Source: an uncultured Gemmatimonadales bacterium (GTDB taxonomy: Bacteria > Gemmatimonadota > Gemmatimonadetes > Gemmatimonadales > GWC2-71-9). Taken from it: a stretch of DNA of 64,000 nt. A program made the position numbers and the translations under genes. Below are positions 17,937 to 38,405 of the stretch, piece after piece (positions within the stretch are counted from its first letter, which is position 1; the number at the start of each line of letters is the position of its first letter). The notes below the pieces were generated by a model. The model searched no databases, was not told where the DNA came from, and saw only the letters and a program-made list of their open reading frames with translations. The stretch is from the NCBI GenBank assembly GCA_963779755.1, contig CAVZZO010000001.1, forward strand, positions 928,001-992,000, read 5' to 3'.

Positions 17937-19097
17937 ATGCGCTTCCGATCTCTCCTTGTGTTCACCGTCCTCTTCGCCGCTTGCCAGGCGGATGCCAGCT
18001 CGGGTACCGGCTGGGCCGGCACCATTGATACTCTGCCGGGGGGCATCCCGATGGTGAAGAATCCCGATCGCGGCCTCTGGAAGCCGGGCGAGGCGTGGCG
18101 GGTCGTCGAAGAGGCGAGGATCGGCACGGAGTCGGGGGACGGACCGGCCTCGTTCTCTCAGATCCGTGCCTTCGAGGTCGATCGGGCGGGCCGCATATAT
18201 GTGCTCGACAGCGAGGCTCAGGAGATCCGGGTGTTCGACAGCACCGGCGCCTGGGTGCGCACCATCGGCCGGAAGGGCGGTGGGCCGGGGGAGTTCAAGC
18301 AGGCCATCGGGATGAGATGGGATCCGGCCGGACGGCTCTGGGTGGTGGACCAGGCCAACGGGCGATTCAGCCTGTTTGACACCGCTGGTACGCTGCTGAC
18401 CTCGTACACCCGCCTGACCAACGGGGTCTTCACCTGGGACTGGGGCGGGAGCTTTGTCCCGGGCCACGGCCTGGTGGATATCGCCTATTCCCCGGGCATG
18501 GAGCGGCAGGCACTCGTCCTTCTGGATTCTGCCGCCCGAGCAACGCCCGACACGTTCCCCGTTCGCCGGTTTGATGCCCCCGCGTTCGAGATTTCCGACA
18601 AGAACCGCCATATCAGTGCGAACATTCCGTTTGCGCCGGCTCTCGATTGGCTCATCGGTCCAGCGGGGGATTTCTGGTATGGCATTTCAGATTCGTACCG
18701 CATCGTCCACCGGCGGCTGGAGGGTGATACCCTGCGGATCATCGAAAAGGCGTGGACCCCCGTCCGGGTAACGCAGGCCGAGCGAGATACGGCGCTCCAG
18801 CGGTACGAATGGTTTACCCGGCAGGGCGGCACGGTTGACGCCTCCAGAATTCCAGACACCAAGCCGGCGTTCGAACGTCTGACGGTTGATGATCGAGGGG
18901 ACCTCTGGGTCCGTCCCGGTGGGGCGCCCGCGGGGCTTTACGACGTATTCGATCCGGAAGGCAGGTATCTGGGGGTGGTGCATGCCGGGGTCAACCTGAA
19001 GTATCAGCGGCCGCTGATCCGGGGCGATCACCTGTATGCGGCCGTGGTAGACACACTCGGTGTTCCCTATATGGTCGAGGCCCGCATCGAGCGCTGA
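17937..19097 (+). CDS. 6-bladed beta-propeller (NHL-like) lipoprotein
   Basis: Lipobox LFAAC; IGRKGGGPGEF; DDRGDLWV; DVFDPEGRYLG. Confidence 0.85.
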   Translation: MRFRSLLVFTVLFAACQADASSGTGWAGTIDTLPGGIPMVKNPDRGLWKPGEAWRVVEEARIGTESGDGPASFSQIRAFEVDRAGRIYVLDSEAQEIRVFDSTGAWVRTIGRKGGGPGEFKQAIGMRWDPAGRLWVVDQANGRFSLFDTAGTLLTSYTRLTNGVFTWDWGGSFVPGHGLVDIAYSPGMERQALVLLDSAARATPDTFPVRRFDAPAFEISDKNRHISANIPFAPALDWLIGPAGDFWYGISDSYRIVHRRLEGDTLRIIEKAWTPVRVTQAERDTALQRYEWFTRQGGTVDASRIPDTKPAFERLTVDDRGDLWVRPGGAPAGLYDVFDPEGRYLGVVHAGVNLKYQRPLIRGDHLYAAVVDTLGVPYMVEARIER

Positions 19098-19106
19098 AGC
19101 AGATGC

Positions 19107-19420: not shown

Positions 19421-19457
19421 CTGTGAAGGCACTCTCCCGAAGGGCCTGGACAGGAGC

Positions 19458-19898
19458 TCAGCTGCTGCTCGCCCGGGCAGTGGCCGCTACCCAGCCCCGC
19501 CTGGAGGTAATCCGGTTGTGGCGTGTGAGAATGGGTCGGTCGTCTACCAGGCCGGAAATGTCCTGGAACCGGGCGACTACGGTAACCCCGGTATTTCCGC
19601 AGAAGCTTGCCGCCGCCAGAAAGGCTCCATCCGACCGGTAGATCTCTGCCAGCCAGCACACGTCCTGCATGCAATCTGAGGCATCCCAGGTCCGGCGGCA
19701 GGAATCCAGCGGCTCGTCGCTTCCCACGCACATCCAGCGGATGTCATATGACCAGGGGCCCCAGTAGGGCAGGCAGACGGTGCCGCAGGCCTGACCGCCG
19801 GAGGTGGCCTGTCCTGATGCTGTCTGTGCCTGAACCGGCACACTGGCGATGAGCATCGTACAGGCGAGTACCACCGGCACCCCCATCACGGTTCTCAT
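19458..19898 (-). CDS. Exported Cys-rich mini-protein (6-Cys core + distal Cys)
   Basis: Signal peptide ending VQA; C-x3-C-x14-C-x9-C-x8-C-x4-C-x18-C; GAGGTG SD-like sequence. Confidence 0.7.
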   Translation of the reverse strand: MRTVMGVPVVLACTMLIASVPVQAQTASGQATSGGQACGTVCLPYWGPWSYDIRWMCVGSDEPLDSCRRTWDASDCMQDVCWLAEIYRSDGAFLAAASFCGNTGVTVVARFQDISGLVDDRPILTRHNRITSRRGWVAATARASSS

Positions 19899-19928
19899 AT
19901 GCACCTCGCTTGAGGGAGTGGGACCAGT

Positions 19929-20978
19929 TCACCGGCTTATGGCGAGCTTCAACCGGTACAGCATTACGTCGGCATCCGGCTGACCCAGACACCAGAGGGT
20001 TCGGTTCACCTGGTCGAATGTCAGGCAGGCACCGATCTCCGGGGGGAGCCGAACGGTGCTTACGATGCCCTGGTTCCGCACGACAAGATCCAGGAGGACG
20101 GCCTCAGGCGTCAGCCGGCCTGTGAGGTATCGCCCAGCGGACAGCAGATAGGGCGTCTGCATGATTGTCACCCGGGCAGCGTGATTGATCCGGACGTGGA
20201 TGCCCCCGCTGTCGCCCGGGGCAATCTGGAAGAGGTCCTCCGGTCCCGACCGGAAGACCATCGGGACCACGACAGAATCCAGAACCTGACCTTCCGGCCG
20301 GTAGGCATAGATCAGGTAGGGCTGCTTCGGTGCGTAGATCAACGCATTGTCCGGACTGCGCGACATTGACCCCGCACCCCAGTACCGGAGAACGGCGGCA
20401 AGACGGACCGGCGTGAGCGGGCCGAACGAAGCAAGGTGCTTCATGGACCAGGTGAACAGGTGGACACCGAAATTCCGGCCGGGCCAATCGGTCTGGGCCA
20501 CTCCGGCAACGGCGACACGACGCCCGGAGAGCCCGAGGACGCGGTCAACTTGGGCGAAGCCGTAGGGAAGGCGGGTGCGACTGAGAAAGACGCCTGCCGA
20601 ATCGAAGTAGGAGATCTCGCGTGTGGCTACGTCATAGACCAGCAACTCCCCTTCAGGGGAGACGCTCAGCCGATAGGCGCCGCGAAATTCGCCCGGCCCC
20701 TCGCCCGAACGGCCGATGACCCGCAGTACAGGGCCCTGCTGGCTCAGGTGGACGACGCGGGCATTGCTGAAATCGGCCAGGTACAGTGATCCGTCGGGGG
20801 CCACCGCGGCATCCGCGATTTCGCCAATCGTGGGATAGGGACCAAGACTGTCAGTCCGGGTGACCCTCAGTTGCGCTGCCAGAGAGGAGCAGGCACAGAG
20901 CGCCGTCACCAAAGCAGCAAGCGACAGGACGGAACCTTTCCGAGTCCAGCGGGAAAGTCGGTTCAGGAGGTGAGCCAT
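19929..20978 (-). CDS. 6-bladed beta-propeller exported protein
   Basis: Signal peptide; PDGSLYLAD; IGRSGEGPGEF. Confidence 0.8.
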   Translation of the reverse strand: MAHLLNRLSRWTRKGSVLSLAALVTALCACSSLAAQLRVTRTDSLGPYPTIGEIADAAVAPDGSLYLADFSNARVVHLSQQGPVLRVIGRSGEGPGEFRGAYRLSVSPEGELLVYDVATREISYFDSAGVFLSRTRLPYGFAQVDRVLGLSGRRVAVAGVAQTDWPGRNFGVHLFTWSMKHLASFGPLTPVRLAAVLRYWGAGSMSRSPDNALIYAPKQPYLIYAYRPEGQVLDSVVVPMVFRSGPEDLFQIAPGDSGGIHVRINHAARVTIMQTPYLLSAGRYLTGRLTPEAVLLDLVVRNQGIVSTVRLPPEIGACLTFDQVNRTLWCLGQPDADVMLYRLKLAISR

Positions 20979-21030: not shown

Positions 21031-22107
21031 TCAGTTGCGCAGACCGGGTTCGATAACCAGGAGCCTGATCCCGCCGGATTCAGCCTCCTGCATTTCAACC
21101 AGCGCTCCGGTAAAGGCGCCCAGCGGTGCCGGGTACCGCCGGGTGGAGATCACCCGTCCGCTGGAGGCGTCGAGCACTTCGATGATCCCATCCAGCATGG
21201 CGGCGTAGTCGTTCGGGCCAGGAAGCGAGTTTCCTGCCTGCGTGGGCGCATGCCACGGCTTCCACTGGCGGTCGGGAACCGATGCGACCACCCAGAGATG
21301 ATCCTCATCGTCCAGCCAGATTCCGCTGATCCGCGGCTCCGGGCGTTCGGCGAACGCATCCTTCTCGGCCACGGATGTTCGCGGCTCTTCATCCTTGAAC
21401 CAGGGCGATCCGGGGGCAATCACGCTGAGCCGCATTCCGTCCGCGCCCCAGTGCGAGAACTGGTAGGCGCCGGTCCTCCGCGCGCTCCAGAAGCCGCCCC
21501 GGCCGTCGGAGGCCATGACGTACTGCAGCTGGTCAGGGTCTGCGCTGGTGCTGTCGCCGGCGGTGGCCACGCTGTCGAAGTTCGGGCTGAAGATCTGAAA
21601 CGGCCGGCCCGGGATGGTATAGGTGTTGACCACCACTCCGCCGTCCGCGAGGCTCGCGATGCCGGAGGCGCGGCTCGCCAGCGGCACGGTTCGGACAAAG
21701 CGCAGATCGGGTGCCAGGACGGTGAGCCGTTCCGTCAGCACCACCACCGATCCATCAGACCGAATGGCCAGATCCCTGATGTGGCGGAACTCGCCCGGGC
21801 CATCGCCTGCCCGTCCGACAGGTGCCAGCGCCAGACCGGCGGAATCGTACCGGGCGATCTGCGACAGGTCGCCCGCCGGCGCGACCAGATAGTCGCCCTG
21901 CCTGAAAGGATGCGGGGCGGAGAAGAGCCGCAGCTGCGCGGGATCGTCGTCCCGGCCCAGGACCACCCGGGCATGCAGCTGGATGCGGCAGCTGTCGCAG
22001 GCAAGTGATCGAGACTCGGCGGTGTCAGTCCCCGGCCCTCTGCTCCCCCGGCCACAGGCGGCAACAAGCAGGCAGATAGCCAGGCTGAGCTGAAGGTGTG
22101 GGCTCAC
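21031..22107 (-). CDS. 6-bladed beta-propeller lipoprotein
   Basis: Lipobox LVAAC; CDSC.I.L; VGRAGDGPGEF; DGIIEVLD. Confidence 0.8.
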   Translation of the reverse strand: MSPHLQLSLAICLLVAACGRGSRGPGTDTAESRSLACDSCRIQLHARVVLGRDDDPAQLRLFSAPHPFRQGDYLVAPAGDLSQIARYDSAGLALAPVGRAGDGPGEFRHIRDLAIRSDGSVVVLTERLTVLAPDLRFVRTVPLASRASGIASLADGGVVVNTYTIPGRPFQIFSPNFDSVATAGDSTSADPDQLQYVMASDGRGGFWSARRTGAYQFSHWGADGMRLSVIAPGSPWFKDEEPRTSVAEKDAFAERPEPRISGIWLDDEDHLWVVASVPDRQWKPWHAPTQAGNSLPGPNDYAAMLDGIIEVLDASSGRVISTRRYPAPLGAFTGALVEMQEAESGGIRLLVIEPGLRN

Positions 22108-22347: not shown

Positions 22348-23721
22348 GGTGCCGTCCCGATTCGTGTAGAAAATTGAAATGGCGTATGCTTCCGGGATGA
22401 TCGAACCCCGATCCGCCGAAGTGCGGATCTAACCCGGAGGCATACGCCATGAGAGAAGTTACGGCCACGGAGCAGGGGTGGGAAGCACTGGTCGGGGCGG
22501 ACCCGCTGACGGCGGCCCTGCGCCGCGAAGCGCGGCGCTGGATTGAGCGCATGTTGCACGAGGAATTGGCGGCCGTCTTGGGCAGCGGCCGGCATGAGCG
22601 GACCGCCGCCCGGCAGGGATATCGGCACGGCACCCGGCGGCGGCGGGTGACGACCAGCCTGGGCCCCGTGGATCTCGCCATCCCGCGAGGGCGGGTGCAG
22701 GCGGGCGCCGAGCTGCGGGAATGGCAGAGCGGGCTGCTGCCGCGGTACGCGCGCCGAGCCCGGGCGGTGGATGCGGCGCTGGTCGGCTTCTACTGCGGGG
22801 GCGGCAATCAGCGGCGGCTCGCCCGGGCGCTCCGCTCGCTGCTGGCCGACGGTCCCGCCTCGCGGAGCACGGTCTCGCGCGTCGTGCGGGGGCTGCGGCA
22901 GGGCTACGAGGCGTGGCGCGAGCGCCCCCTGGGGGAGTTGGGGGTGCAGTATCTCTATCTGGATGCGATCCACCTGCATGTGCGGGTGCTCAAGCGGGTC
23001 GAGCCGCTCCCGGTCCAGGTGGCGGTCGGGGTGCGGCCCGACGGGCAGAAGGTGCTGCTGGATCTCCGGCTCTACGTCGCGGAGAGCGCCGCGGCCTGGG
23101 GCGACTTCGTGCGCGGGCTGGTGGAGCGCGGCCTGGTCGCGCCGGCGCTGGTGATCACCGACGGCAGCAAGGGTCTGCGCCGGGCGCTGAGCGAGATCTG
23201 GCCGCAGGCTGCGGTGCAGCGCTGCACGGTGCATAAGCTGCGCAACCTGGCGGCCCACTGCCCGCAGCGGCTCTATCCGGCCGGCAAGCGCGACTACCAC
23301 GCCATCGTGTATGCCGCCGATGCGGAGGCGGCGCGGCGGGCCTGGGGGCGGTTTACCCGCCGCTGGGGCCGGGAGCTGCCGGGGGTGGTGGCGAGCCTGG
23401 AGGAGGCGGGCGAGGAGCTGCTCACGTTCTATCGCCTGCCGAAGGCGCAGTGGAAGAGCCTCCGCACGACGAATATCGTCGAGCGCGTGCTGGAGGAGGT
23501 GCGACGGCGAGTCAAAACGCAGGGATCGTTGCCCAGCACCGAGGCCGTCCTGGTGCTCGGCTACGGTCTGATCGCGACGGGGCAACTGCCCTTGCGGCGG
23601 ATTGCCGGCTGGCGAACCTTGCCCCGTGTCAGTAACCGTCAAGCGGCTGCATGAGCGCCTGACACGCTTGGAGGCCCGGAGACAGCGCCCATTGATTTTC
23701 TACACAACTCGGGACACGACC
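22348..23721 (+). mobile_element. Complete IS256-family insertion sequence with 8-bp TSD CGGAACCT
   Basis: IRL GGTGCCGTCCCGATTCGTGTAGAAAAT; IRR (reverse complement) GGTCGTGTCCCGAGTTGTGTAGAAAAT; TSD at 22340-22347 and 23722-23729. Confidence 0.95.
22449..23654 (+). CDS. IS256-family (mutator-type) transposase
   Basis: YLYLDAI, LVITDGSKGL, QRCTVHKLRN, LRTTNIVER..EVRRR. Confidence 0.95.
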   Translation: MREVTATEQGWEALVGADPLTAALRREARRWIERMLHEELAAVLGSGRHERTAARQGYRHGTRRRRVTTSLGPVDLAIPRGRVQAGAELREWQSGLLPRYARRARAVDAALVGFYCGGGNQRRLARALRSLLADGPASRSTVSRVVRGLRQGYEAWRERPLGELGVQYLYLDAIHLHVRVLKRVEPLPVQVAVGVRPDGQKVLLDLRLYVAESAAAWGDFVRGLVERGLVAPALVITDGSKGLRRALSEIWPQAAVQRCTVHKLRNLAAHCPQRLYPAGKRDYHAIVYAADAEAARRAWGRFTRRWGRELPGVVASLEEAGEELLTFYRLPKAQWKSLRTTNIVERVLEEVRRRVKTQGSLPSTEAVLVLGYGLIATGQLPLRRIAGWRTLPRVSNRQAAA

Positions 23722-24916
23722 CGGAACCTTGGGGAACCTGGTCACGGTGATACCGGTACTCTGTCACGAACTCCTGCCCGGTGGAGTCGGCCAGCGCGCC
23801 GAGTATGTAGTCATCCCCGATCTCGAAGAGCCGCATCTCGGCCGGCAGCTGGAGTGTCGCCAGACTGTCACCGGCCGGTGAATAGACCCGGACGGCCGTC
23901 GAGTCGTCGCCCGGGACGGTCGTGACCACCCACAGGTCCCCGTCGGGGTCGGTGAGCAGGGCAGTGTAGGGGGGCAGATGCTCCGGCATCTTCGTCAGTG
24001 CCAGCATCATCTTCTTGATCATGGCCCGGTCCGCCGGGGCGCCGGCCATGGTATTCAGCATCTGATCGATGGCGCGATCGAAGTGATGCGCCGTGGCCGG
24101 CCGAAGGGCGCCGCCAATCCGGATGCTTCCCGTCCGGTTGGCCTTGAGATCGTACTCGTCCACCCAGGCGGAATCTCCGGTGCCGACATACAGCCGGTCC
24201 TCGCTCAGGGCGAGCCGGGTGATGGTGCCCAGCGGGCTGCTCTGTCCCAGATAGACTTCCGGCAGACCCGCCAGACTGTCGCCTTGGGCGTTCGCCACGA
24301 TAACCCGGCTGAAGACGCGCTGTGCTCCCATGGCCTCAGGCGCCTGACCCGGGCTCGTCATCATGGCGAAGGTGCCCGCACGGGAGCACGTGAGGTTGAC
24401 CGGGAGTGGGGGGGCTGGGAGATCTCCCTCGCGAACCAGCTTGCCATGTGAATCGAACTGCGCCAGTGTGGCCCGACCTGCATCCCAGGTGTACACGCCG
24501 TCCCCTCCGCACTGGCCCAGCCAGCCCAGGACCTGGAATTCACCGGGACCACCCCCGTGGCGGCCGGCGGACCAGACCGGCTGTCCCGATGCGTTGAACG
24601 CCTTGATGGACTGCTCGTGCCCGCCGTAGCCGTCGGCAACGACGACCGTTCCGTCGGGGAGCCTGGTCGCGCCCACCACGTGGGTAAGGAGCTCCTCCTC
24701 ATCGGCCCGCGAACGCGGAATCGTGACCAGCGGAGTATCGTCCAGCACGAGAGCCCTGGTGACGGCCGCCTGATTCCCTGTACCCGATGATGCGGCCGGC
24801 TTTTTCACTTCTCCGGCACACCCCGCGAGCCCGGCACCCACGAAGAATGCGAATGCTGCGTACAACCGTACAGCAGATGCCTGCCTCGGGGTAAGTCTCG
24901 ACTCTTGCGTCCGCAT
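23639..24916 (-). CDS. 6-bladed beta-propeller lipoprotein; extreme C-terminus replaced by IS256 sequence
   Basis: Lipobox LAGC; AGRHGGGPGEF; DPDGDLWV; FEIGDDYILG; reading frame crosses the TSD into IRR. Confidence 0.8.
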   Translation of the reverse strand: MRTQESRLTPRQASAVRLYAAFAFFVGAGLAGCAGEVKKPAASSGTGNQAAVTRALVLDDTPLVTIPRSRADEEELLTHVVGATRLPDGTVVVADGYGGHEQSIKAFNASGQPVWSAGRHGGGPGEFQVLGWLGQCGGDGVYTWDAGRATLAQFDSHGKLVREGDLPAPPLPVNLTCSRAGTFAMMTSPGQAPEAMGAQRVFSRVIVANAQGDSLAGLPEVYLGQSSPLGTITRLALSEDRLYVGTGDSAWVDEYDLKANRTGSIRIGGALRPATAHHFDRAIDQMLNTMAGAPADRAMIKKMMLALTKMPEHLPPYTALLTDPDGDLWVVTTVPGDDSTAVRVYSPAGDSLATLQLPAEMRLFEIGDDYILGALADSTGQEFVTEYRYHRDQVPQGSGSCPELCRKSMGAVSGPPSVSGAHAAA

Positions 24917-25604: not shown

Positions 25605-26041
25605 TGGCCGCGGCGGCGACCTCTGGTTCGGGATTTCCGAGGACTACCGCATCGTTGACCGGCGGCTGCGCGGCGACACGGTACGCATCATCGAGAAGCA
25701 ATGGACGCCTCAGCATGTGACCGGGGCCGAACGGGATCCCGCGCTGAAACACTACGACTCGTTTGTCAAGCAAGGTGGCAAGCTGGACGCCTCGAAGGTG
25801 CCGTCCTCCAAGCCCGCCTTTCGCCGGTTCACCGTTGACGATCAGGGAGCACTCTGGGTAGAACCCGGCGGAGCGCCTCGCGGCGCCTGACGTCTTTAGG
25901 CCGGCCGGCAGGTATCTGGGCCAGGTGGTGACAGGCTTGCAGGTCTCCGGGTCGCCGCTGATCCGGGGCGCCCATTTCTTCGCGTCGATCGCGGATTCAC
26001 TGGGCGTGCCGTACATGGTCGTGGCCAGAATCGAGCGCTGA
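25605..26041 (+). pseudogene. 3' fragment of a beta-propeller gene paralogous to 17937-19097, frameshifted near 25888
   Basis: GDLWFGISEDYRIV..KPAFRRFTVDDQGALWV, then in another frame DVF..GRYLG..LGVPYMVVARIER*. Confidence 0.85.
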
Positions 26042-30306: not shown

Positions 30307-30765
30307 ATGTTCAGTCCAATGCACATCCACATGCTCGCGGCGATTACAGTGCCAGGCGAAGGAAGAACCCAGCTGCTACGGCGGATTGTTGAAACGAGTG
30401 CGTTCTTAGGAGGCGCTGATCGCTGTGCCGAAATACTTGACCTTCGTAACCGCTATTGCCTCACTCGGACTCTCAAGTCCTATGGGCTTCCGCCCTGGCG
30501 TATATTGAGACGATGGTTGCGTCTGATCTACTGGCTGCTGATCTCGGAGATCACCGAACTGAGCTTGTCCGCGTGGTCCCTGGAGCAGGGCAAGAATCCG
30601 TCAACTGACGTACGTGCCGTCAGGTCACTGGTCGGCCTCACATGGGGCGAGGCAAAGGTAAGAGGTTCGGCCTGGGCGATAGCAGAGTTCGAGCAAGTAC
30701 TACGTCACTCCATCACGGATAGTACCCTTGCTGGTGGTTCTCGGGAGGATTGTCAGTCCGGCTAG
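30307..30765 (+). CDS. AraC-like HTH domain protein (no sensor domain)
   Basis: LTRTLKSYGLPPW..LRRWLRL..SLS..S...GKNPS...R..R...G.TW pattern; promoter and SD present. Confidence 0.65.
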   Translation: MFSPMHIHMLAAITVPGEGRTQLLRRIVETSAFLGGADRCAEILDLRNRYCLTRTLKSYGLPPWRILRRWLRLIYWLLISEITELSLSAWSLEQGKNPSTDVRAVRSLVGLTWGEAKVRGSAWAIAEFEQVLRHSITDSTLAGGSREDCQSG

Positions 30766-30862
30766 CCTCCCCCCCCTTGCGCCCCTCCCCAGAATCGCCA
30801 CACTAGAGAGAAGCACCCGTCCCGCGCCTCCCGCGGGCCGGGTCGTCCTTGGCCAAGATTCC

Positions 30863-31969: not shown

Positions 31970-32060
31970 AACGGTGAGCGGTAAACGGTAAGCGGTGAGC
32001 GGGCGCGCACCGAACCCCTCGCCGCGGTCCCGCTCACTGCTCACTGCTTACCGCTCACTG
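31970..32060. repeat. Palindromic heptamer element (GCGGT[AG]A)n ... (CTCACTG/CTTACCG)n
   Basis: Direct reading. Confidence 0.85.
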
Positions 32061-32062
32061 TC

Positions 32063-35000
32063 ATGTCCCTCTCCTCACGCTCCATCTCCCGCCCCGTCAC
32101 CACCATCGCCGCGCTGCTGGCGCTGGTGCTGGTGGGGATCGTGAGCCTGAGCCGGCTGCCGGTCTCGCTGCTGCCCGATGTGCAGCTACCGGTGCTCACG
32201 ATCCGGACGCACTACCCGGGTGCCGCCGCGATGGAGGCGTCTCGCCTCGTCGCCGAGCCGATCGAGGAGGCCATCGGCGCGACGCCCGGCCTGGTGGAGC
32301 TGCGCTCGGTGAGCCGAACTGACGAGGTCACCACCACCGCGCGCTTCGCCTGGGGCACCGACATGGCGGCCACGGTGCTGGCCGTGCGCGAGCGGCTGGA
32401 CAACGTCCGCAGCCGGCTGCCGGAGAAGGCCGAGCGTCCCACCCTCCTCACCAGCGACCCGGGCCAGCGGCCCATCGCGATGCTGGCCCTCACCGGGGTG
32501 GGAGATCTGCGGGTCGTCTCCCGCACGGCCAAGGAGGTCCACGCCCGCCGGCTGGAACAGCTCGACGGTGTCGCCAGCGTGGCGGTGGTCGGTGAGCCCA
32601 AGGACGAGATCCGGGTGGAGCTGGACCCCAACCGGATGCGTGCGCTGGGCATCTCGCCCGAGGATGTGAGTCAGGCGCTCCAGGCCGCCAATTGGGGCGC
32701 GCCTGGAGGGACGATCAAGCGGGGGCAGTTCCGCTATTCGGTTCGCGCCCTCACCGAGTTCCAGAGCCTGAACGAGATCGGCGAGATACCGGTGGGGCCG
32801 GCCGGCAGCGCCCGCTTGCGGGACATCGCCACCGTCACCCTCGCCACCGCCGATCCGCTGACGGTCGTCCGCCTGGACGGCAAGCCCGCCGTTGGCCTGG
32901 TGGTCTACAAGGACGCCAACGCCAATACCGTCGCCGTCACCAGGAAGATCGACGAGGCAGTGGCGCAGCTGGAACAGGAGTTCCCCGGCGTCCATCTCAC
33001 CGTGGTGGCGGCGCAAGCCCGTTTCGTGAAGGACGCGCTCACCAACCTGGGCCAGGAGATCATCGCCGGCGGCATCCTTGCCGTGCTGGTGATCATGCTG
33101 TTCCTGCAGGACATCCGCGCGTCGCTCAGCATCGCGCTGGTCGTGCCGCTCTCGGTGCTGGTGGCGCTGGTCGCGCTCCAGGCGCTCCACGTCACCATCA
33201 ATGTCCTCTCGCTCGGCGGCCTGGCACTCGGCGTCGGCATGCTGGTGGACAACGCCATCGTGGTCGCCGAGGCGACTCGGCGCAAACGGGACGAAGGACT
33301 TCCACCGGCGGAGGCGGCACGGGTCGCGACGGACGAAGTCGCGGGGCCGCTCATCGCGGGGACGCTGACAACGCTGCTGGTCTTCGGACCGATCGTCTTC
33401 GTTCGCGGCCTGGCGGCGGCCCTGTTCCGAGATCTGAGTCTGAGCGTGGTGACGGCGGTGGGAGCGTCGCTGCTGTTGGCGCTTACCCTGATGCCCGTCA
33501 TGATGGCGCGGGGCGGTAAGCGGTCAGCAGTAAGCGGTAAGCGGGGCCCCGGTTCCGGCCCGCTCACCGCTCACCGCTCACTGCTGACCAGGTGGGGGCA
33601 TTACCTGTCCGAGGCGTACGAACACGGCGTCGCCTGGTGCCTCGACCACCCCTTACGGGTGTTCGCGGTTTCTCTTGCGGTGGTGCTCGCGACCGCGCTT
33701 CTCGCCTTGCGGCTCCCGCGGGAGATCCTGCCGCAGGTGGATGAGGGTGTGATGGTTGCCGAGGTGAAGCTGCCGGTGGGCACAGCCCTGGAGGAGACCA
33801 CCCGCAACGTGGGCCGTGTGGAAGACGCCGCGGAGGCATTGGGCTCCGCCCGGATCTACAGCCGGGTGGGGGTCGCGACCGATGAGGAAATCCTGGCCGG
33901 GGCCGATCCTGGCACCTCCAGCACGGCACAGATGGTGATTCCCGTACCGCCAGGCGCCGACGCACAGGAGTTCGCCGACCGGCTGCGCGCCAGGGTGCCC
34001 GACCTCGCGGCGGGATCCCTGGCCCTGGATCTGGCGGGACAGTCGGAGTTCGGCAGTCTCATCGGCCGCGAGGGGCGGCTGGTGAGCCTCGAGGTGAGCG
34101 GCCTGGATCAGAAGCAGGCGGAGGTCTGGGCCGATTCCGCCCGGCGCATCGTCGGAGGGATTCACGGGCTGGCCGACGTGCGCGATGCCTACGCCGGCAC
34201 CCAGCCGGTGGTGGAGATCACGCTGGAGCGGCAGCGGATCGCGCTGCGGGGCCTGAGCGTGGAACAGGTGGCGGGCGCCCTCTCGGGCGGGCTCGGGGGC
34301 ATCAAGGCGACCGATTTTCGCGAGACGGACAAGCGCACGCCGATCACCGTCCGGCTGGCGGGCAGCGCCAACGAAGATCTCGACGCCGCGCTCAACACCG
34401 TGGTGCAGGGAGTCCCGGTGGGGCAGCTGGTAACGGTGCATGAGACCCGCGCCCCGATCGAGGTGGTGCGGGTGAACCAGCGCCCGGTGTCCATCGTGGA
34501 AGCGGTGGTGGAACGCGGCGGGACGGCGCGAGCAACCGAAGCGGTCGAGACGGCGCTCGGGTCTCTCGCCACGCCGCCCGGCCTCACCTGGACCGTGACG
34601 GGCGCCGATGTCGAGCAACGCCGCACCACCCACGAACTGAGCCTGGTGGCGGTACTGTCGGTGGCCCTGGTCTTTCTGGTGCTGGCGGGCGAGTTCGCCT
34701 CGTTCACCACGCCGCTGCTCATCATGCTCACCGTGCCGCTGGCCGCCGGCGGCGGGATCGTGATCCTCTGGCTCACGGGCCAGAGCCTCAACGCCGTGTC
34801 GCTCATCGGCATGGTGGTGATGATCGGTATCGCCGACAACGATGCCGTGGTGAAGCTCGATGCCATTCGGCGCTACCGGGCGCAGGGGCTTCCCATCCGC
34901 GAAGCGATAATGAAGGGCGGCCGCGAGCGGCTGCGCGCCATCGCCATGACCTCGCTGACGACGGTCGTCGGCGTCCTGCCGCTCATCGTGGGCATCGGCA

Positions 35001-35209
35001 GCGGCGGCCAGCTCTATCAGCCGCTCGCCGCCGGCATCATCGGCGGGTCCATCTCGGCGACGCTGGTGACCTTCTTTCTCCTTCCCACGGCATATGGAGT
35101 GGTGGAGACGTATAAGGAAAGGAAGGCGGTAATGGCGGTACAGGCGGTAACGGCGGTAGAACCTCATGCCCTGACTCCCTCCCCACGCGGTGGAGAGGGG
35201 GAACCGTGA
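32063..35209 (+). CDS. RND efflux permease subunit 1 (AcrB/CusA superfamily)
   Basis: TINVLSLGGLALGVGMLVDNAIVVAE; RLRAIAMTSLTT; 1048 aa. Confidence 0.95.
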   Translation: MSLSSRSISRPVTTIAALLALVLVGIVSLSRLPVSLLPDVQLPVLTIRTHYPGAAAMEASRLVAEPIEEAIGATPGLVELRSVSRTDEVTTTARFAWGTDMAATVLAVRERLDNVRSRLPEKAERPTLLTSDPGQRPIAMLALTGVGDLRVVSRTAKEVHARRLEQLDGVASVAVVGEPKDEIRVELDPNRMRALGISPEDVSQALQAANWGAPGGTIKRGQFRYSVRALTEFQSLNEIGEIPVGPAGSARLRDIATVTLATADPLTVVRLDGKPAVGLVVYKDANANTVAVTRKIDEAVAQLEQEFPGVHLTVVAAQARFVKDALTNLGQEIIAGGILAVLVIMLFLQDIRASLSIALVVPLSVLVALVALQALHVTINVLSLGGLALGVGMLVDNAIVVAEATRRKRDEGLPPAEAARVATDEVAGPLIAGTLTTLLVFGPIVFVRGLAAALFRDLSLSVVTAVGASLLLALTLMPVMMARGGKRSAVSGKRGPGSGPLTAHRSLLTRWGHYLSEAYEHGVAWCLDHPLRVFAVSLAVVLATALLALRLPREILPQVDEGVMVAEVKLPVGTALEETTRNVGRVEDAAEALGSARIYSRVGVATDEEILAGADPGTSSTAQMVIPVPPGADAQEFADRLRARVPDLAAGSLALDLAGQSEFGSLIGREGRLVSLEVSGLDQKQAEVWADSARRIVGGIHGLADVRDAYAGTQPVVEITLERQRIALRGLSVEQVAGALSGGLGGIKATDFRETDKRTPITVRLAGSANEDLDAALNTVVQGVPVGQLVTVHETRAPIEVVRVNQRPVSIVEAVVERGGTARATEAVETALGSLATPPGLTWTVTGADVEQRRTTHELSLVAVLSVALVFLVLAGEFASFTTPLLIMLTVPLAAGGGIVILWLTGQSLNAVSLIGMVVMIGIADNDAVVKLDAIRRYRAQGLPIREAIMKGGRERLRAIAMTSLTTVVGVLPLIVGIGSGGQLYQPLAAGIIGGSISATLVTFFLLPTAYGVVETYKERKAVMAVQAVTAVEPHALTPSPRGGEGEP

Positions 35210-35282
35210 CGACAGCCACGGGCGTGCACCTACCGCCTTTACCACCGCTACCGCCCATACCGCCGGTGCGGCGGTCCCGCCC

Positions 35283-38200
35283 ATGATTCAGTGGGCCGCC
35301 CACCGTCCCGCCGTCGTCTGGTCGGTGAGCCTCGCGCTGGTCGCGGCGGGGGCCGTGGCCTTCACCCGGCTGCCGCTCGCCACCCGCCCGGTGGTCGAGC
35401 TGCCGAAGCTCACCGTGAGCGTCTCCTGGCCCGGCGCCTCCGCCGAGCTGGTCGAGTCCTATCTCACCTCACCCATCGAAAGCGCCATCCAGGGCGTCCG
35501 AGGCGTCAAGAAGGTGAGCAGCGAGTCCACCGACGGTTCCGCCAGCCTGGAGGTGGATCTGCAGGAGGGGAGCGACGCGCAGTTTGCCCGTCTGGGGATT
35601 CTCGAGCGGCTGGAGCTTATCCGGAAGGACTTCCCGCCCGGCGCCTCGGCGCCTTCGGTTACCAACTACGTCCCCGACGACCTCGCCGAGCAGCCGCTCC
35701 TTTTCTACATCATCTACGGACCGTACACCTCGGGCACGCTGGCGCGGATGGCGGAGGAGCGGATCCTGCCGCACATCACCGCCGTGGAAGGCGTGGCGGG
35801 CGTGGACCACAGCGGTGGCGCGGAGCAGGCCGTCGCGGTGAGCTACGACGCACAGCGGCTCCGCCAGCTCGGCATTTCCAGTGATGCCGTCGCCCAGGCC
35901 ATTGCCGGCGCGAGGGTCGTGCAGTCGCTGGGCCGGGTGGAGAATGCAGTCAACGTGCTGCCGGTGACGCTACGCGATCAGCCCCACGCCATCGAGGATC
36001 TGGGGCAGCTCCCGGTCCGCGGGCTGGCGGGACAGGTCTACCCCCTGCGCGAGCTGGCCAGCATCCGGATGGAAGAGGACTCGCGCGACCAATTCTACCG
36101 GGTGAACGGCGAGCCGGCGGTGGCGCTCCGCATCGCTCGGCTTCCCGGTGCCGATGCCATCCGCACCGCCGCGCGGGTCCGGCAGGCTATGATGATGCTG
36201 CAGCCTCAGCTGTTGCCGGGCGTCCGTCTCGAGCTGCAAACCGATGAGAGCGTGGAACTCGGCACGCAGCTGCGCGATCTCCTGCTGCGCGGGAGCATCG
36301 CCTTCGCGGCGGTGATGCTGGTGCTGGCCTCGGCGCTGCGGAACGCCCGGTCGATCGCCCTGGTGATGGGGAGCGCCGCGGTGGCCATCGCCGGAACCGC
36401 GCTCGGGCTCTATCTCCTCAGGATTCCCGCCAACCTGCTGACGCTGGCCGGCCTGGGGATGGGCATCGGCATCCTGGTCCAGAATGGGCTCATTGTGGTG
36501 GCCCGGCTCCGTACCATGCCGGACACGCCGGAGGGCCGCGCCGAGGCCAGCCGGCGCATCCTGCCGGCGGTGGTGGGCGCCACGCTCACTACGGCGGTTG
36601 TGCTGATTCCTTTCCTTTATTTGCAGGGAAACGCGCGGGCCGCCTTCACCCCCTTTGCGGTGGCCTTCGTGCTGGCCCTGGCCTGGTCGGTGGGGGCCTC
36701 GGTGATCATGATCCCGGCGCTGGGCGCGGGGCACGGGATGAATACCCGGCAGTGGCCCAGGCTGCAGCGGGCCTATTTGCGGATCATGGTGCGGCTGCTG
36801 CGCTGGCGCTGGGCCACGCTCGTCCTGGCAGCGGCGGCGGTGGGGGTGCTCGCCTGGGGCTTCGTCAAGAAGGTGCCCCGCAGCAACTGGGGCAACTGGT
36901 TCGGCCAGCGCACCACACTCGGCGCCAGCCTCAGTTTCCCCCGCGGGTCCGACCCGGCCAGTCTCGACCAGGGCATGCGCGATCTGGAGTCGGTGGTGCA
37001 GGGGCAGCCCGGCGTGGAGCAGGTGACGGCTCAGGGCTCCGGCGGAGAGGCGTATCTCCGCGTGGTCTTCACCCATGCGTCGGAGTTCGGGCCGCAGCCG
37101 TACATCCTGCAGGAAGCGCTCACCCAGCGGGCCATCCTGATCGGCGGGGCCACCGTTTCGGTGTCCGGGCGCGGCCCCGGATTCTACTCCGGCGGCGGCA
37201 TGGGCGGGTCCACCTATCGTATCAAGGTGCTGGGCTATTCCTTCTCCGGGGTGGAACAGCTGGCGTACGACCTCAAGAAGCGGCTGGAACGCATTCCGCG
37301 GGTACAGGATGTGGACGCCAACGCCGCCGGGTTCTATGGCAGAGAGAAGTCCTATCTGGTGACGCTGGATCCCGACCGCGAGGCACTGGCCCGCCATGGC
37401 ATCACGGCCCGGCAGTTCGCCTCGGCGCTGGGACGCGCGGTGGCGGGGCAGGTGGGGGGAACCCGGATCGAGATCGGCGGCCGCGAGCTGCCGGTGAACG
37501 TCAAGGCGAAGGGCGCGCGGGAGCGCACCCTGGACCAGCTCCGCTCCTCGTTCATCGCCAACAGGGACGGTGCCCCGGTGCGGGTGAGCGATCTGGCCGC
37601 GGTGGACGAGCAGGAGGCGCTCTCGCGGATCAGCCGGGAAGACCAACAGTACGTGCGCATCGTGAGCTACGATTTCCGCGGGCCTCCCAAACTGGCGGAG
37701 CGGACGCACGAGGCGTTCATGAAGACCATCTCCGTACCCCCGGGCTATACCGTGGGCGATGACGAATGGGACTGGGGCACGGACAGCAGCACCAGAGGCC
37801 TGTGGCTGGTGTTCGGCATCGGCATTCTGCTGGTGATCCTCTCCGTGGCCATGGTGTTCGATTCCGCCTGGGCAGCGGCCATGGTGTTCCTGAGCCTGCC
37901 GATCGCCCTGGGCGGCAGCGTGGCAGCTTTCTGGATCGCCGGCGCCGCGTTCGGCCGGGAGGCGGCGGTGGGGGTGATACTGGTGGTCGGCCTGGCGGTG
38001 AACCAGAGCATTCTGCTGGTGGATGGGGCGCTCGGAAGGCGGTCGGCTAAGGCGGCAAGACGGCAGGACGGCAGGACGGCAGGGGGTGAGCCGGTGGCAT
38101 CCTACCGCCGTACCGCCGTACCGCCGTACCGCCGGGGGTTGGGCGGCCGGGACGTGATCGCCGCCTGCCGCGACCGGGCGGGAACCATCCTGCTGGTCAC

Positions 38201-38405
38201 CTTCGTCACGCTGGCCAGCCTGCTGCCGTTGGCCGTCGGCACGAAGACGGACGAGCTCTTCGGCGGGATTGCGCTGGCGACGGTGGGCGGGACCATCGCG
38301 GGGACGATCGGCGCGCTGTTCGTGGTGCCGGCGATGGTGGTGGGGCGGAGGAGGAAGAACAGCGATCCCTCCAATCCCCAATCCCCCGCCCATCACTCCT
38401 TCTAA
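35283..38405 (+). CDS. RND efflux permease subunit 2 (divergent TM4)
   Basis: Full RND topology; TM4 NLLTLAGLGMGIGILVQNGLIVV; ATG 35283. Confidence 0.92.
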   Translation: MIQWAAHRPAVVWSVSLALVAAGAVAFTRLPLATRPVVELPKLTVSVSWPGASAELVESYLTSPIESAIQGVRGVKKVSSESTDGSASLEVDLQEGSDAQFARLGILERLELIRKDFPPGASAPSVTNYVPDDLAEQPLLFYIIYGPYTSGTLARMAEERILPHITAVEGVAGVDHSGGAEQAVAVSYDAQRLRQLGISSDAVAQAIAGARVVQSLGRVENAVNVLPVTLRDQPHAIEDLGQLPVRGLAGQVYPLRELASIRMEEDSRDQFYRVNGEPAVALRIARLPGADAIRTAARVRQAMMMLQPQLLPGVRLELQTDESVELGTQLRDLLLRGSIAFAAVMLVLASALRNARSIALVMGSAAVAIAGTALGLYLLRIPANLLTLAGLGMGIGILVQNGLIVVARLRTMPDTPEGRAEASRRILPAVVGATLTTAVVLIPFLYLQGNARAAFTPFAVAFVLALAWSVGASVIMIPALGAGHGMNTRQWPRLQRAYLRIMVRLLRWRWATLVLAAAAVGVLAWGFVKKVPRSNWGNWFGQRTTLGASLSFPRGSDPASLDQGMRDLESVVQGQPGVEQVTAQGSGGEAYLRVVFTHASEFGPQPYILQEALTQRAILIGGATVSVSGRGPGFYSGGGMGGSTYRIKVLGYSFSGVEQLAYDLKKRLERIPRVQDVDANAAGFYGREKSYLVTLDPDREALARHGITARQFASALGRAVAGQVGGTRIEIGGRELPVNVKAKGARERTLDQLRSSFIANRDGAPVRVSDLAAVDEQEALSRISREDQQYVRIVSYDFRGPPKLAERTHEAFMKTISVPPGYTVGDDEWDWGTDSSTRGLWLVFGIGILLVILSVAMVFDSAWAAAMVFLSLPIALGGSVAAFWIAGAAFGREAAVGVILVVGLAVNQSILLVDGALGRRSAKAARRQDGRTAGGEPVASYRRTAVPPYRRGLGGRDVIAACRDRAGTILLVTFVTLASLLPLAVGTKTDELFGGIALATVGGTIAGTIGALFVVPAMVVGRRRKNSDPSNPQSPAHHSF

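What the first reader, a model, noticed from the sequence alone, without database searches (positions are those of the whole stretch)
17937..38405. Candidate undescribed system: 6-bladed propeller arrays + exported Cys-rich mini-proteins + AraC-like HTH + heteromeric RND exporter
Seen: five intact exported or lipoprotein propellers share G[R]xG[GDE]GPGE[FY] (17937+, 19929-, 21031-, 23639-, 28829-), and two more survive as fragments. Twice, a propeller gene is followed directly by a co-oriented exported protein with a 6-Cys core plus one distal Cys (19458-19898; 28232-28825). A sensor-less AraC-like HTH gene is transcribed divergently from the second cassette and runs into MFP + two RND permeases. 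Knowledge: as I recall, Bacteroidota place NVEALA-type Cys-rich peptides beside 6-bladed propellers and paired RND permeases, with unknown function. Inference: a polymorphic peptide/partner system (effector-immunity, signal-receptor or maturation) that is swapped as cassettes and possibly exported by the RND pair. No RiPP modifying enzyme is visible.
Basis: partly seen in the sequence, partly recalled or inferred. Interest (0 to 1): 0.85.

Follow-up and report, generated by a model that had tools for sequence, protein, structure and literature searches.

The report
Propeller plus seven-cysteine partner gene pair
This Gemmatimonadota genome carries a conserved but undescribed pair of exported proteins, a six-bladed propeller and a small seven-cysteine, three-histidine partner, while the efflux pump, the second cysteine-rich ORF and the other propellers beside it are not shown to belong to it.

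Summary
They do not form one 20-kb system.

The solid core is a two-gene module. It consists of prop5 (28829-29929, -), an exported NHL-type six-bladed propeller whose only two mature cysteines form an N-terminal CPQC pair, and, 3 nt downstream, CysB (28232-28825, -).

CysB belongs to a large unnamed family:
- An exhaustive HMM search found 1122 cluster representatives at E<=1e-3.
- The family shares a signal peptide, a C-x2-C-x2-C...H...H-x-C...C-x2-HP-x-C core and an invariant distal Cys.
- No significant match was found in Pfam, NCBIfam, PDB sequences or PDB folds.

In 29 of 30 loci across the phylum, and in 20 of 20 extended loci, a CysB homologue sits directly beside a co-oriented propeller of this subtype.

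The other parts fare less well:
- CysA (19458-19904) is an unrelated orphan ORF.
- The small HTH-like gene belongs to a real family only loosely linked to propellers.
- The RND operon is absent from 0 of 20... that is, present in none of the 20 extended module loci.
- The HTH/prop5/CysB cassette is a low-GC insert.

My best reading is a periplasmic two-subunit complex built around a Cys/His metal or thiol centre. This is inferred, not shown.

The parts
28829..29929 (-). prop5: exported NHL-type six-bladed propeller of the partner subtype. Its N-terminal CPQC pair holds the only two mature cysteines. The longest ORF extends to 30085.
   Evidence: C34 and C37 nearly invariant in 20 partner propellers; NHL domains of TRIM71/Thin, PAL, 4raa.
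28232..28825 (-). CysB: exported 197-aa protein, founding window member of an unnamed 7-Cys/3-His family. It starts 3 nt after the prop5 stop.
   Evidence: 1122 representatives at E<=1e-3; AF2 core pLDDT 86-95; site conservation; adjacency.
30307..30765 (+). Small HTH-like protein (152 aa), divergent from prop5. It belongs to a family of ~150-aa proteins with a faint AraC/HTH_18 likeness.
   Evidence: 29 of 150 family genomes, one of them the unpublished G068; 2 of 10 members hit HTH_18, best E 0.0016.
27669..28008 (+). Frameshifted second copy (pseudogene) of the HTH-like gene. It is divergent from the prop4-like fragment and convergent with CysB.
   Evidence: two frames: residues 20-66 and 60-133; 40% identity over 80 aa.
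21031..22107 (-). prop3: lipoprotein propeller of the partner subtype (CDSC pair), with no CysB-family neighbour (solo).
   Evidence: (28% identity to prop5 over 289 aa).
19929..20978 (-). prop2: non-partner NHL/DUF5128-type propeller.
19458..19904 (-). CysA: orphan ORF with a signal-peptide-like N-terminus and 7 mature Cys. It is not a CysB-family member and its status as a gene is unproven.
   Evidence: (GC3 0.75).
17937..19097 (+). prop1: lipoprotein NHL/DUF5128-type propeller (non-partner type).
   Evidence: (PF17170 38.3 bits, cut-off 22.9).
23639..24916 (-). prop4: lipoprotein propeller (non-partner type). Its 3' end runs into the IS element.
22348..23721 (+). IS256/Mutator-family insertion sequence, 6 copies in the genome. 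It is context, not part of the module.
   Evidence: (PF00872 E 2e-79).
25606..26038 (+). Frameshifted C-terminal fragment of a prop1-like propeller, part of a segmental duplication.
   Evidence: 18673-19425 matches 25622-26370 at 71% nt identity.
26860..27252 (-). C-terminal fragment of a prop4-like propeller.
30863..38405 (+). MFP (30863-31969) plus two tandem RND permeases (32063-35209 and 35190-38405). This is an ordinary MdtABC-like efflux operon, a neighbour and not a conserved component.

Best explanation
The real unit is a two-gene, co-transcribed periplasmic module. One gene encodes an NHL-type six-bladed propeller whose mature form has exactly two cysteines, an N-terminal C-x(1-4)-C pair (mostly CxxC, here CPQC). 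The other encodes a cognate exported ~160-residue protein of a new family. That protein has a small beta-rich Cys/His domain (6 Cys and 3 His, each about as conserved as the cysteines) joined to an alpha/beta domain that carries one invariant Cys at a hairpin tip.

Shown:
- the family exists and is large;
- its Cys/His signature is nearly invariant while the rest of the sequence diverges to about 23% identity;
- it is almost always encoded directly beside, and on the same strand as, a propeller of this subtype, in either gene order, sometimes in tandem arrays;
- the module sits in variable, often mobile-element-rich regions, and in this window on a low-GC insert.

Inferred:
- the two proteins form a heteromeric complex in the periplasm;
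- the Cys/His domain holds metal ion(s) and/or a redox-active thiol centre, and works together with the propeller's Cys pair;
- the propeller supplies the binding or catalytic platform.

The other propellers are paralogues clustered by local duplication. The HTH-like gene is an accessory small DNA-binding protein that travels with some cassettes. The RND operon is a bystander next to the insertion site.
For: Family size and naming.
- HMM of 5 sequences against 1.84 billion representatives: 1122 at E<=1e-3 and 168 at <=1e-10.
- 98 of the top 150 have exactly 7 Cys.
- The sources name members only 'hypothetical protein'.

Site conservation in 143 sequences: C42 142, C45 126, C48 141, H56 142, H73 142, C75 142, C81 143, H84 140, C87 143, C156 143. 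The one sequence that lacks C48 also lacks C75.

Fold (143-row alignment): pLDDT 86-88 for the Cys/His strands and 92-95 for the C-terminal domain. C156 lies between strands 150-154 and 161-166.

Adjacency.
- 29 of 30 loci from 401 phylum genomes have a co-oriented propeller directly next to the CysB gene. In 19 it is upstream and in 10 downstream only. The one miss lies 194 nt from a contig end. The best query was a partner-type propeller in all 26 new loci that had one.
- 20 of 20 extended loci, with all 24 full CysB ORFs adjacent to a propeller.
- Tandem arrays occur in L078, L077 and L013.

The Cys pair. All 20 adjacent propellers carry an N-terminal Cys pair. The non-partner propellers printed lack it.

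Spacing. The gap is 3 nt here, and 9 and 19 nt in G089 and G104.

Thiol theme.
- A DsbA-like gene replaces CysB after a partner-type propeller in G126, and another closes the G089 propeller cluster.
- An earlier scan note describes a propeller + redoxin + Cys-mini-protein module in the same phylum.

Distribution: 51 of 401 genomes, in 5 of 12 families of the phylum sample.
Against: - No direct evidence of binding, of metal content or of any activity.
- The spacing of the propeller's Cys pair varies from x1 to x4. This argues against a thioredoxin-like redox CxxC and fits a simple structural disulfide loop equally well.
- Exported cysteines are usually disulfide-bonded, so 3 disulfides plus one free Cys is an equally economical reading of the 7 Cys.
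- Some partner-type propellers stand alone: window prop3, G126 and L066. The propeller therefore does not strictly need CysB.
- Co-divergence of the two partners is only modest: Mantel r 0.317, and nearest neighbours agree in 5 of 23 pairs. Shared ancestry alone could produce this.
- Expression is unverified.
Confidence: 0.5

Rival explanations
1. Polymorphic effector/immunity (or bacteriocin/receptor) pair. CysB is a secreted, disulfide- or metal-stabilised effector. The adjacent periplasmic propeller neutralises or binds it. Cassettes are swapped and multiplied under diversifying selection.
For: - Only the Cys/His scaffold is conserved, and the rest diverges to a median 23% identity.
- There are up to 9 matches per genome, and tandem pairs occur.
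- Mobile-element, PIN and HipA genes and low-GC islands lie around modules.
- Decayed copies are present in the window.
Against: - Neither protein matches a toxin, peptidase, nuclease or lipase family in Pfam or NCBIfam.
- No secretion-system or toxin-delivery domain was found in CysB or in the neighbours.
- Gene order is not fixed (19 upstream, 10 downstream).
- Three invariant His point to a cofactor site rather than a pure scaffold.
Confidence: 0.15
2. Enzyme/client pair. The propeller, through its Cys pair, alone or with DsbA-like helpers, oxidises, isomerises or cross-links its dedicated Cys-rich client CysB. The matured CysB is the functional end product.
For: - Strict pairing of the two genes.
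- DsbA-like genes stand in or beside propeller clusters in G126 and G089.
- An earlier scan note reads a related module this way.
- NHLRC2 joins a Trx-like domain to an NHL propeller (PMC6107167; only the search listing and the start of the abstract were seen).
Against: - The spacing of the Cys pair varies from x1 to x4, which is unlike catalytic CxxC motifs.
- CysB is a confidently folded two-domain protein, not a short precursor.
- No radical-SAM, protease or other maturase family was found among 125 neighbouring proteins.
Confidence: 0.15
3. Propeller arrays, both Cys-rich ORFs, the HTH gene and the heteromeric RND pump act together, and the pump exports the peptides or a product.
For: - All of these genes are adjacent in the window.
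- In the related genome G126, an HTH/propeller cassette also lies next to the orthologous RND operon. Two independent insertions beside the same operon could reflect selection for linkage.
Against: - 0 of 20 module loci have MFP/RND families within about 5 kb.
- 0 of 11 other HTH-like loci have an MFP match.
- In G126 the cassette sits at the other end of the operon, convergent with it, flanked by a 96-bp direct repeat of the RND2 3' end, with GC 0.547 against 0.65-0.667 in the flanks.
- CysA has no relatives.
- The proteins carry Sec-type signal peptides.
- As established knowledge of the HAE1/Mdt family, RND pumps move small molecules, not 16-kDa folded proteins.
Confidence: 0.07
4. No functional coupling. 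CysB is an independent periplasmic protein, and the adjacency only reflects common descent of one ancestral gene arrangement.
For: - All searched genomes belong to one phylum, so the loci are not independent.
- Co-divergence is weak.
Against: - The adjacency survives sequence divergence to about 23-25% identity, inversion of gene order, tandem multiplication and relocation to unrelated neighbourhoods.
- The partner is always the subtype with the N-terminal Cys pair.
Confidence: 0.08

Closest known systems
Thioredoxin-like + NHL-propeller proteins (human NHLRC2; plant SOQ1, which I only recall)
   Same: Both combine an NHL six-bladed propeller with a cysteine-pair module. In bacteria and in the thylakoid lumen they sit in the extracytoplasmic compartment. 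The propeller is thought to be the binding platform.
   Different: - Here the Cys pair lies in a short N-terminal extension with variable spacing, not in a thioredoxin fold.
- The Cys/His-rich partner is a separate polypeptide of an unknown fold.
- There is no sequence relation beyond the NHL repeats.
- For NHLRC2 I saw only the search listing and the start of the abstract of PMC6107167. SOQ1 is recalled.
Bacteroidota DUF5128 (PF17170) six-bladed propellers with neighbouring NVEALA (PF14055) small proteins
   Same: - Exported or lipoprotein six-bladed propellers occur in paralogous arrays next to small exported proteins of unknown function.
- prop1 and prop2 reach the PF17170 cut-off (38.3 and 23.0 bits against 22.9).
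   Different: - prop3, prop4 and prop5 do not match PF17170.
- Neither CysA, CysB nor any of 58 CysB-family members matches PF14055.
- CysB is twice the size and defined by 7 Cys and 3 His.
- Searches for 'NVEALA' and 'DUF5128' found no paper in the held library.
Periplasmic amine dehydrogenases with a propeller subunit and a small Cys-rich subunit (methylamine dehydrogenase; quinohemoprotein amine dehydrogenase)
   Same: A periplasmic beta-propeller subunit is encoded with a small cysteine-rich subunit that carries the reactive centre.
   Different: - Those propellers are 7-bladed and not of NHL type.
- Their small subunits need dedicated maturases (MauG; radical-SAM QhpD), which I recall. 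No such family was seen among the window genes or among 125 neighbours.
- The only trace is 1 of 58 family members hitting NCBIfam QH_gamma at E 0.0092, which is noise level.
- The PDB profile search found nothing.
Earlier scan finding e1-3888523 (propeller lipoprotein + thioredoxin-fold lipoprotein + four-cysteine mini-proteins, Gemmatimonadota)
   Same: - Same phylum.
- An NHL-type propeller is coupled to thiol chemistry and to fast-evolving exported Cys-rich proteins.
- I also found DsbA-like genes next to partner-type propellers.
   Different: - That module has a separate redoxin gene and short 4-Cys proteins.
- Here there is no redoxin in the window, and the partner is a 160-residue 7-Cys/3-His two-domain protein.
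- I saw no sequence from that finding.

Membership tests
NHL-repeat six-bladed beta-propeller | Repeated NHL blades detectable by profile, including the G-x-G-x-G-P/x-G-x-F signature | tested here: met
   - Pfam NHL/DUF5128 hits for prop1 and prop2.
- The partner-type profile A5 hits NHL domains of Thin, TRIM71, TRIM2/3, Brat and PAL at E 9e-41 to 8.5e-6, with 3-4 repeated stretches.
- The motif is invariant in A5.
- The blade number was not verified by a model of the propeller.
Bacteroidota DUF5128 + NVEALA neighbourhood | Propeller matches PF17170 above its cut-off | tested here: inconclusive
   Met for prop1 (38.3 bits) and just met for prop2 (23.0 against 22.9). There is no hit for prop3, prop4 or prop5.
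Bacteroidota DUF5128 + NVEALA neighbourhood | Adjacent small protein matches PF14055 (NVEALA) | tested here: not met
   No PF14055 hit for CysA or CysB at E<=10, nor for 58 CysB-family members at E<=0.01.
AraC/XylS transcription regulators (HTH_18, PF12833) | C-terminal double helix-turn-helix matching PF12833 above its cut-off | tested here: inconclusive
   - The window protein has no hit even at E<=10.
- 2 of 10 family members hit HTH_18, best E 0.0016, below the gathering score.
- hhalign against a true HTH_18 protein next to another module gave 76 aligned columns, E 0.017, probability 2.7%.
- The PDB profile search gave only MarR-type Rv1404 at E 0.14.
RND (HAE1, MdtABC-like) efflux system | MFP adaptor plus ACR_tran permease(s) | tested here: met
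   - HlyD_D23 and RND_mfp hits for the adaptor.
- ACR_tran at 710 and 430 bits for the two permeases.
- MdtB/MdtC models match below their cut-offs.
- No outer-membrane factor gene follows; gyrA is next.
RiPP precursor/maturase system | Short precursor peptide plus a modifying enzyme (radical SAM, YcaO, lanthionine synthetase and the like) in the locus | tested here: not met
   - CysB is a 197-aa protein with two confidently folded domains.
- No such enzyme family was found among the window ORFs or among 125 neighbours of 20 module loci.
4Fe-4S ferredoxin-type proteins | Significant match to Fer4-type models, and Tat export for a periplasmic location | tested here: not met
   - Only noise-level hits: NADH_4Fe-4S in 1 of 58 members at E 0.00085, and Azotobacter ferredoxin at E 0.31.
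- 4 of 151 stored proteins (the top 150 hits plus CysA, P0001) match a loose twin-arginine pattern.
CysB family (defined here; unnamed) | Signal peptide, C-x2-C-x2-C ... H ... H-x-C ... C-x2-H-P-x-C core, then a helical/beta domain with N..R..(A)LQ(V).GC | tested here: met
   The window CysB has every conserved site. CysA does not.

The most novel reading that the evidence does not exclude
The propeller's N-terminal Cys pair and the partner's 7 Cys and 3 His (12 potential ligands in all) together build an intermolecular metal or redox centre. On this reading the module is a new class of two-subunit periplasmic metallo- or thiol-enzyme, or a metal-dependent binding complex, on an NHL scaffold. 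It would have multiplied and diversified as mobile cassettes in Gemmatimonadota, and the 7-Cys/3-His domain would be a new metal-binding fold.
Probability: 0.2. Interest if true: 0.8.

Novelty: categorically new. Interest (0 to 1): 0.6.

Why it matters
Gemmatimonadota are abundant soil bacteria with very few characterised proteins. This work turns a vague 20-kb 'system' into a sharply defined, testable two-gene module. Its partner family has at least 1100 sequence clusters. No Pfam or NCBIfam model, solved relative or recognisable fold was found for it.

The family has a nearly invariant 7-Cys/3-His signature. That signature predicts a cofactor or a reactive thiol site in an exported protein. 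If the pair forms a metal- or redox-linked complex, it would add a new periplasmic cofactor domain and give a function to one subfamily of the widespread bacterial NHL propellers.

The negative results also matter. The efflux pump, the second Cys-rich ORF and the NVEALA analogy should not be carried forward as parts of a system.

Tried and rejected
- Complex prediction of prop5 (residues 24-366, 20-row alignment) with CysB (residues 37-190, 143-row alignment): no verdict. Scores were 0.00 and 0.12 against a mark of 0.32, and the controls were not run. I do not count this either way.
- Public sequencing runs for 27600-31000: no RNA holder was listed. One soil-metagenome DNA run held a 0.07 share of the words.
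- Word-based homologue searches: CysB gave none, CysA only itself, and the A3 profile only 3 hits. The exhaustive HMM search showed the CysB blank was a sensitivity limit.
- ESM Atlas: no usable hit for CysB or CysA.
- Foldseek against the PDB: no match at E<=0.001. VIA-align against 48,161 chains: best Z 4.5, and only the helical C-terminal part aligned.
- The first AF2 run with 5 sequences gave pLDDT ~30 for the Cys-rich part. It was superseded.
- The search for related loci with A3 and then A1 failed because no stretch was conserved enough. I used the genome search instead, so spread outside the phylum was not tested.
- CysA as an out-of-frame reading of a Uma2 pseudogene: rejected. Uma2 homology ends at 19429, 28 nt beyond the CysA stop.
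- CysA relatives in 150 family genomes: best E 0.0013, several with internal stops, which is noise.
- Mirror-tree test: Mantel r 0.317, reached by 1 of 5000 permutations, and nearest neighbours agree in 5 of 23 pairs. This is too weak, and too confounded by kinship, to claim co-evolution.
- Literature searches found nothing relevant: 'Gemmatimonadota + beta-propeller + cysteine-rich' returned 1 unrelated paper, 'NVEALA' 0, 'DUF5128' 0, and 'Gemmatimonadetes + NHL repeat' 2 unrelated papers.
- Earlier scan notes by place and by sequence: nothing.

Full report
**1. What is in the window**

The window is high-GC (0.67 overall), so I used GC3 and homology to pick real frames. The gene map from 17.9 to 38.4 kb is as follows.

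| Feature | Coordinates | Strand | Note |
|---|---|---|---|
| prop1 | 17937-19097 | + | lipoprotein |
| Uma2 endonuclease fragment | 19125-19429 | - | |
| CysA | 19458-19904 | - | |
| prop2 | 19929-20978 | - | |
| prop3 | 21031-22107 | - | |
| IS256/Mutator element | 22348-23721 | + | 6 copies in the genome |
| prop4 | 23639-24916 | - | last ~27 codons lie in the IS |
| IS200-like transposase | 25122-25565 | + | |
| prop1-like fragment | 25606-26038 | + | frameshifted |
| Uma2 | 26049-26786 | - | |
| prop4-like fragment | 26860-27252 | - | |
| HTH-like pseudogene | 27669-28008 | + | frameshifted |
| CysB | 28232-28825 | - | |
| prop5 | 28829-29929 | - | |
| HTH-like gene | 30307-30765 | + | |
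| MFP | 30863-31969 | + | |
| RND permease 1 | 32063-35209 | + | |
| RND permease 2 | 35190-38405 | + | |
| gyrA | from 38537 | + | |

This map rests.

The shared G-x-G-x-GPGE[FY] motif is the NHL-repeat consensus. It shows that the proteins are NHL-type propellers and nothing more specific.

The cluster is local. tblastn with the five propellers found only two further matches in the 4.23-Mb genome.

Part of the cluster arose by segmental duplication. Positions 18673-19425 match 25622-26370 at 71% nucleotide identity, covering the prop1 C-terminus and the Uma2 C-terminus.

**2. The two Cys-rich ORFs are different things**

They share no similarity (BLASTP best E 1.5). Both are single-copy in the genome.

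CysA has no detectable relative anywhere. I tried a word-based search of 5.8 billion proteins (only itself), a six-frame search of 150 genomes of the same family (best E 0.0013, several with internal stops), a profile comparison with the CysB family (probability 2.6%) and the ESM Atlas. Its frame has coding-like GC3 (0.75) and a signal-peptide-like start. It remains an unverified orphan ORF. It lies 28 nt from a duplication breakpoint.

CysB also drew a blank in the word-based search. Six-frame searches in its bacterial family then found weak matches in three genomes. Each lay next to a propeller gene.

A 5-sequence profile searched exhaustively against 1.84 billion cluster representatives found 1122 proteins at E<=1e-3 and 168 at <=1e-10. 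Nearly all are 150-190 residues long. Of the top 150, 98 have exactly 7 cysteines.

In a 143-sequence alignment the conserved sites are:

| Site | Conserved in (of 143) |
|---|---|
| C42 | 142 |
| C45 | 126 |
| C48 | 141 |
| H56 | 142 |
| H73 | 142 |
| C75 | 142 |
| C81 | 143 |
| H84 | 140 |
| C87 | 143 |
| C156 | 143 |

The single sequence that lacks C48 also lacks C75. The three histidines are as conserved as the cysteines. This is the main reason I favour a cofactor or ligand site over a purely disulfide-stabilised scaffold.

Members carry Sec-type signal peptides. A loose twin-arginine pattern fits 4 of the 151 stored proteins checked, that is the top 150 hits plus CysA.

The family has no name in any library I could search:
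- Pfam: 0 meaningful hits in 58 members.
- NCBIfam: 0 meaningful hits.
- PDB sequence profile: best E 0.31.
- Source annotations: only 'hypothetical protein', one from a Gemmatimonadota MAG.

AlphaFold2 with the 143-row alignment gives a confident two-domain model. The first domain is a small three-stranded Cys/His-rich unit (pLDDT 86-88). The second is a helix/three-strand domain (pLDDT 92-95) with C156 at a hairpin tip. Foldseek found nothing at E<=0.001. VIA-align's best Z was 4.5, on the helical part only.

**3. The conserved unit is propeller + CysB**

A profile search of 401 genomes sampled across the phylum found the family in 51. By family the counts were:

| Family | Genomes with a match |
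|---|---|
| f1 | 15 of 165 |
| f2 | 12 of 94 |
| f4 | 1 of 7 |
| f6 | 3 of 30 |
| f7 | 19 of 70 |
| seven smaller families | none |

Some genomes have up to 9 matches.

I examined the 30 best loci with 1.5-kb flanks. In 29 a co-oriented propeller gene lies directly beside the CysB gene. In 19 it is upstream and in 10 downstream only. The one miss sits 194 nt from a contig end. Three of the 30 were loci I already knew, so the independent count is 26 of 27. In all 26 the best of 14 propeller queries was one of the five prop5/prop3-type queries.

I then extended 20 loci to 17 kb and mapped them with six-frame HMM searches. All 24 full-length CysB ORFs in 20 of 20 loci are adjacent to such a propeller. 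Three tandem pairs occur in L078, a propeller followed by two CysB genes in L077, and CysB-propeller-CysB in G102.

All 20 adjacent propellers have an N-terminal cysteine pair just before the first strand. It is mostly C-x2-C, but C-x-C, C-x3-C and C-x4-C also occur. In those I inspected these are the only cysteines of the mature protein. The non-partner propellers (prop1, prop2 and prop4 types) lack the pair.

Caveat on the labels: the 'partner-type' label is partly circular, because profile A5 was built from these same places. The adjacency itself, the tblastn ranking and the Cys pair are not circular.

Gene spacing is tight: 3 nt here, and 9 and 19 nt in G089 and G104.

Both partners are very divergent, with median pairwise identity of 23% and 25%. 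Their distance matrices correlate only modestly (Mantel r 0.317, reached by 1 of 5000 permutations; nearest neighbours agree in 5 of 23). Kinship alone could explain that correlation.

Partner-type propellers also occur without CysB:
- window prop3;
- a gene in L066;
- one in G126, which is followed instead by a DsbA-like thioredoxin gene.

**4. What is not part of it**

*RND pump.* I scanned 125 neighbouring proteins within about 5 kb of the module in 20 loci against Pfam. None is an MFP or RND protein. The neighbourhoods are unrelated to one another. They often include mobile or addiction genes:
- an IS481-type transposase;
- DDE transposases;
- two integrases;
- TraG/TrbL;
- PIN and HipA.

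They also sometimes include a regulator:
- ECF-type sigma genes near L072, L081, L083 and G102;
- a LuxR-type gene in L076;
- an HTH_18 gene in L082.

*HTH-like gene.* It belongs to a real family of ~150-residue proteins, found in 29 of 150 genomes of the bacterial family. One of these genomes is the unpublished G068. Its likeness to AraC is faint. Of 11 other loci with 1.5-kb flanks:
- none has an MFP match;
- two have an NHL propeller divergently adjacent (G126, G040);
- one is fused to a lactonase-like propeller;
- one sits beside a BNR propeller;
- the rest have unrelated neighbours.

*Low-GC inserts.* The window cassette 27600-30800 has GC 0.596, against 0.693 for the RND operon. Its GC3 is 0.57-0.66, against 0.80-0.88.

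In G126 the gyrA side is collinear with the window at 64-83% protein identity. There, an HTH/propeller/DsbA cassette lies between RND2 and gyrA. It is convergent with the pump and has GC 0.547 against 0.65-0.667 in the flanks. A 96-bp direct repeat that duplicates the RND2 3' end flanks it.

So cassettes of this kind have landed at opposite ends of the same operon in two relatives. This fits insertion beside a bystander better than a functional operon. I keep a small probability that the repeated proximity means something.

**5. How it most likely works**

Shown: there is a conserved, co-oriented, tightly spaced pair of Sec-exported proteins. One is an NHL propeller with a lone N-terminal Cys pair. 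The other is a two-domain protein with a nearly invariant 7-Cys/3-His signature.

Inferred: they form a periplasmic heteromer in which the Cys/His domain holds metal ion(s) and/or a reactive thiol and cooperates with the propeller's Cys pair.

The strand pattern would allow two tetrahedral sites, C-x2-C with C-x2-H-x2-C, and C48/H56/H73/C75. The joint loss of C48 and C75 in one sequence fits the second site. This is pattern reading, not a result.

Counter-arguments are that the spacing of the Cys pair varies, that exported cysteines are usually oxidised, and that solo propellers exist.

The rivals are effector/immunity, enzyme/client maturation, the full RND system and mere hitch-hiking. Each is listed with its own test. 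Complex prediction gave no verdict, and no RNA data were available.

**6. Comparison with what is known, and novelty**

The propeller is an ordinary NHL fold. The pump is an ordinary MdtABC-like RND system.

The closest analogies in function are:
- Trx-like + NHL proteins such as NHLRC2 (PMC6107167; I saw only the listing and the start of the abstract);
- periplasmic dehydrogenases that pair a propeller subunit with a Cys-rich subunit;
- a propeller/redoxin/Cys-mini-protein module noted earlier in this scan.

Membership in the DUF5128 + NVEALA neighbourhood, in RiPP systems, in ferredoxins and in the AraC family was tested. It is either not met or inconclusive.

I found no paper on the family with four keyword searches. 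This does not cover subscription journals. I therefore rate the CysB family and its obligate pairing as a kind not yet described, with its function still open.

**7. Limits**

- All genomes searched belong to one phylum and are related.
- Spread outside the phylum was not tested.
- The gene calls in other genomes come from my own ORF heuristics.
- I had no model coordinates, so I could not check cysteine geometry.
- The propeller itself was not modelled.

Noticed in passing
window 22348-23721: IS256/Mutator-family insertion sequence of 1374 bp. Five further copies at 98.3-99.9% identity lie on contigs C1 and C3. It is inserted at the very 3' end of prop4, so that the ORF ends inside the element.
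   Followed up: yes
window 18673-19425 and 25622-26370: Segmental duplication at 71% nucleotide identity over 761 bp, covering the C-terminus of a prop1-type propeller and the convergent C-terminal half of a Uma2 endonuclease gene. One copy keeps the propeller intact, the other keeps Uma2 intact.
   Followed up: partly
window 27182-27470: A 289-bp stretch matching contig C3 (1551507-1551795) at 89% identity. It is an unidentified short repeat that truncates the prop4-like fragment.
   Followed up: no
window 25122-25565: IS200/IS605-type (Y1) transposase gene (NCBIfam NF033573, E 1.7e-20). It lies between prop4 and the prop1-like fragment.
   Followed up: no
L084 (G126:C12) 7666-10866: Low-GC island (0.547 against 0.65-0.667 in the flanks) carrying an HTH-like gene, a lipoprotein propeller with a CQSC pair and a DsbA-like gene. 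It is inserted between the RND2 orthologue and gyrA and flanked by a 96-bp direct repeat (88.5% identical) of the RND2 3' end.
   Followed up: partly
L026 (G047:C5) 499-1920: An HTH-like family member appears fused, in one 473-aa ORF, to a lactonase/Vgb-lyase-like beta-propeller. I did not check whether the fusion is real or an ORF run-on.
   Followed up: no
L078 (G188:C1:3315000-3332000) 5711-10328: Three tandem propeller-CysB pairs on one strand, next to two DDE transposase genes. The same genome has 9 CysB-family matches.
   Followed up: partly
L070 (G464:C1:1616000-1633000) 1-7172 and 11069-15740: Seven non-partner propeller ORFs in tandem upstream of a CysB-propeller pair. Two TMEM260-like O-mannosyltransferase genes lie downstream.
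   Followed up: no
window 8673-11360 and 11580-14708: Upstream neighbours are a DUF5916/CBM9 protein and two HEAT/TPR-repeat proteins. The ORF 7542-8615 gives a weak propeller-profile score (31 bits).
   Followed up: no
window 38405-38537: The RND operon has no outer-membrane factor gene. gyrA follows RND2 after 131 nt.
   Followed up: no
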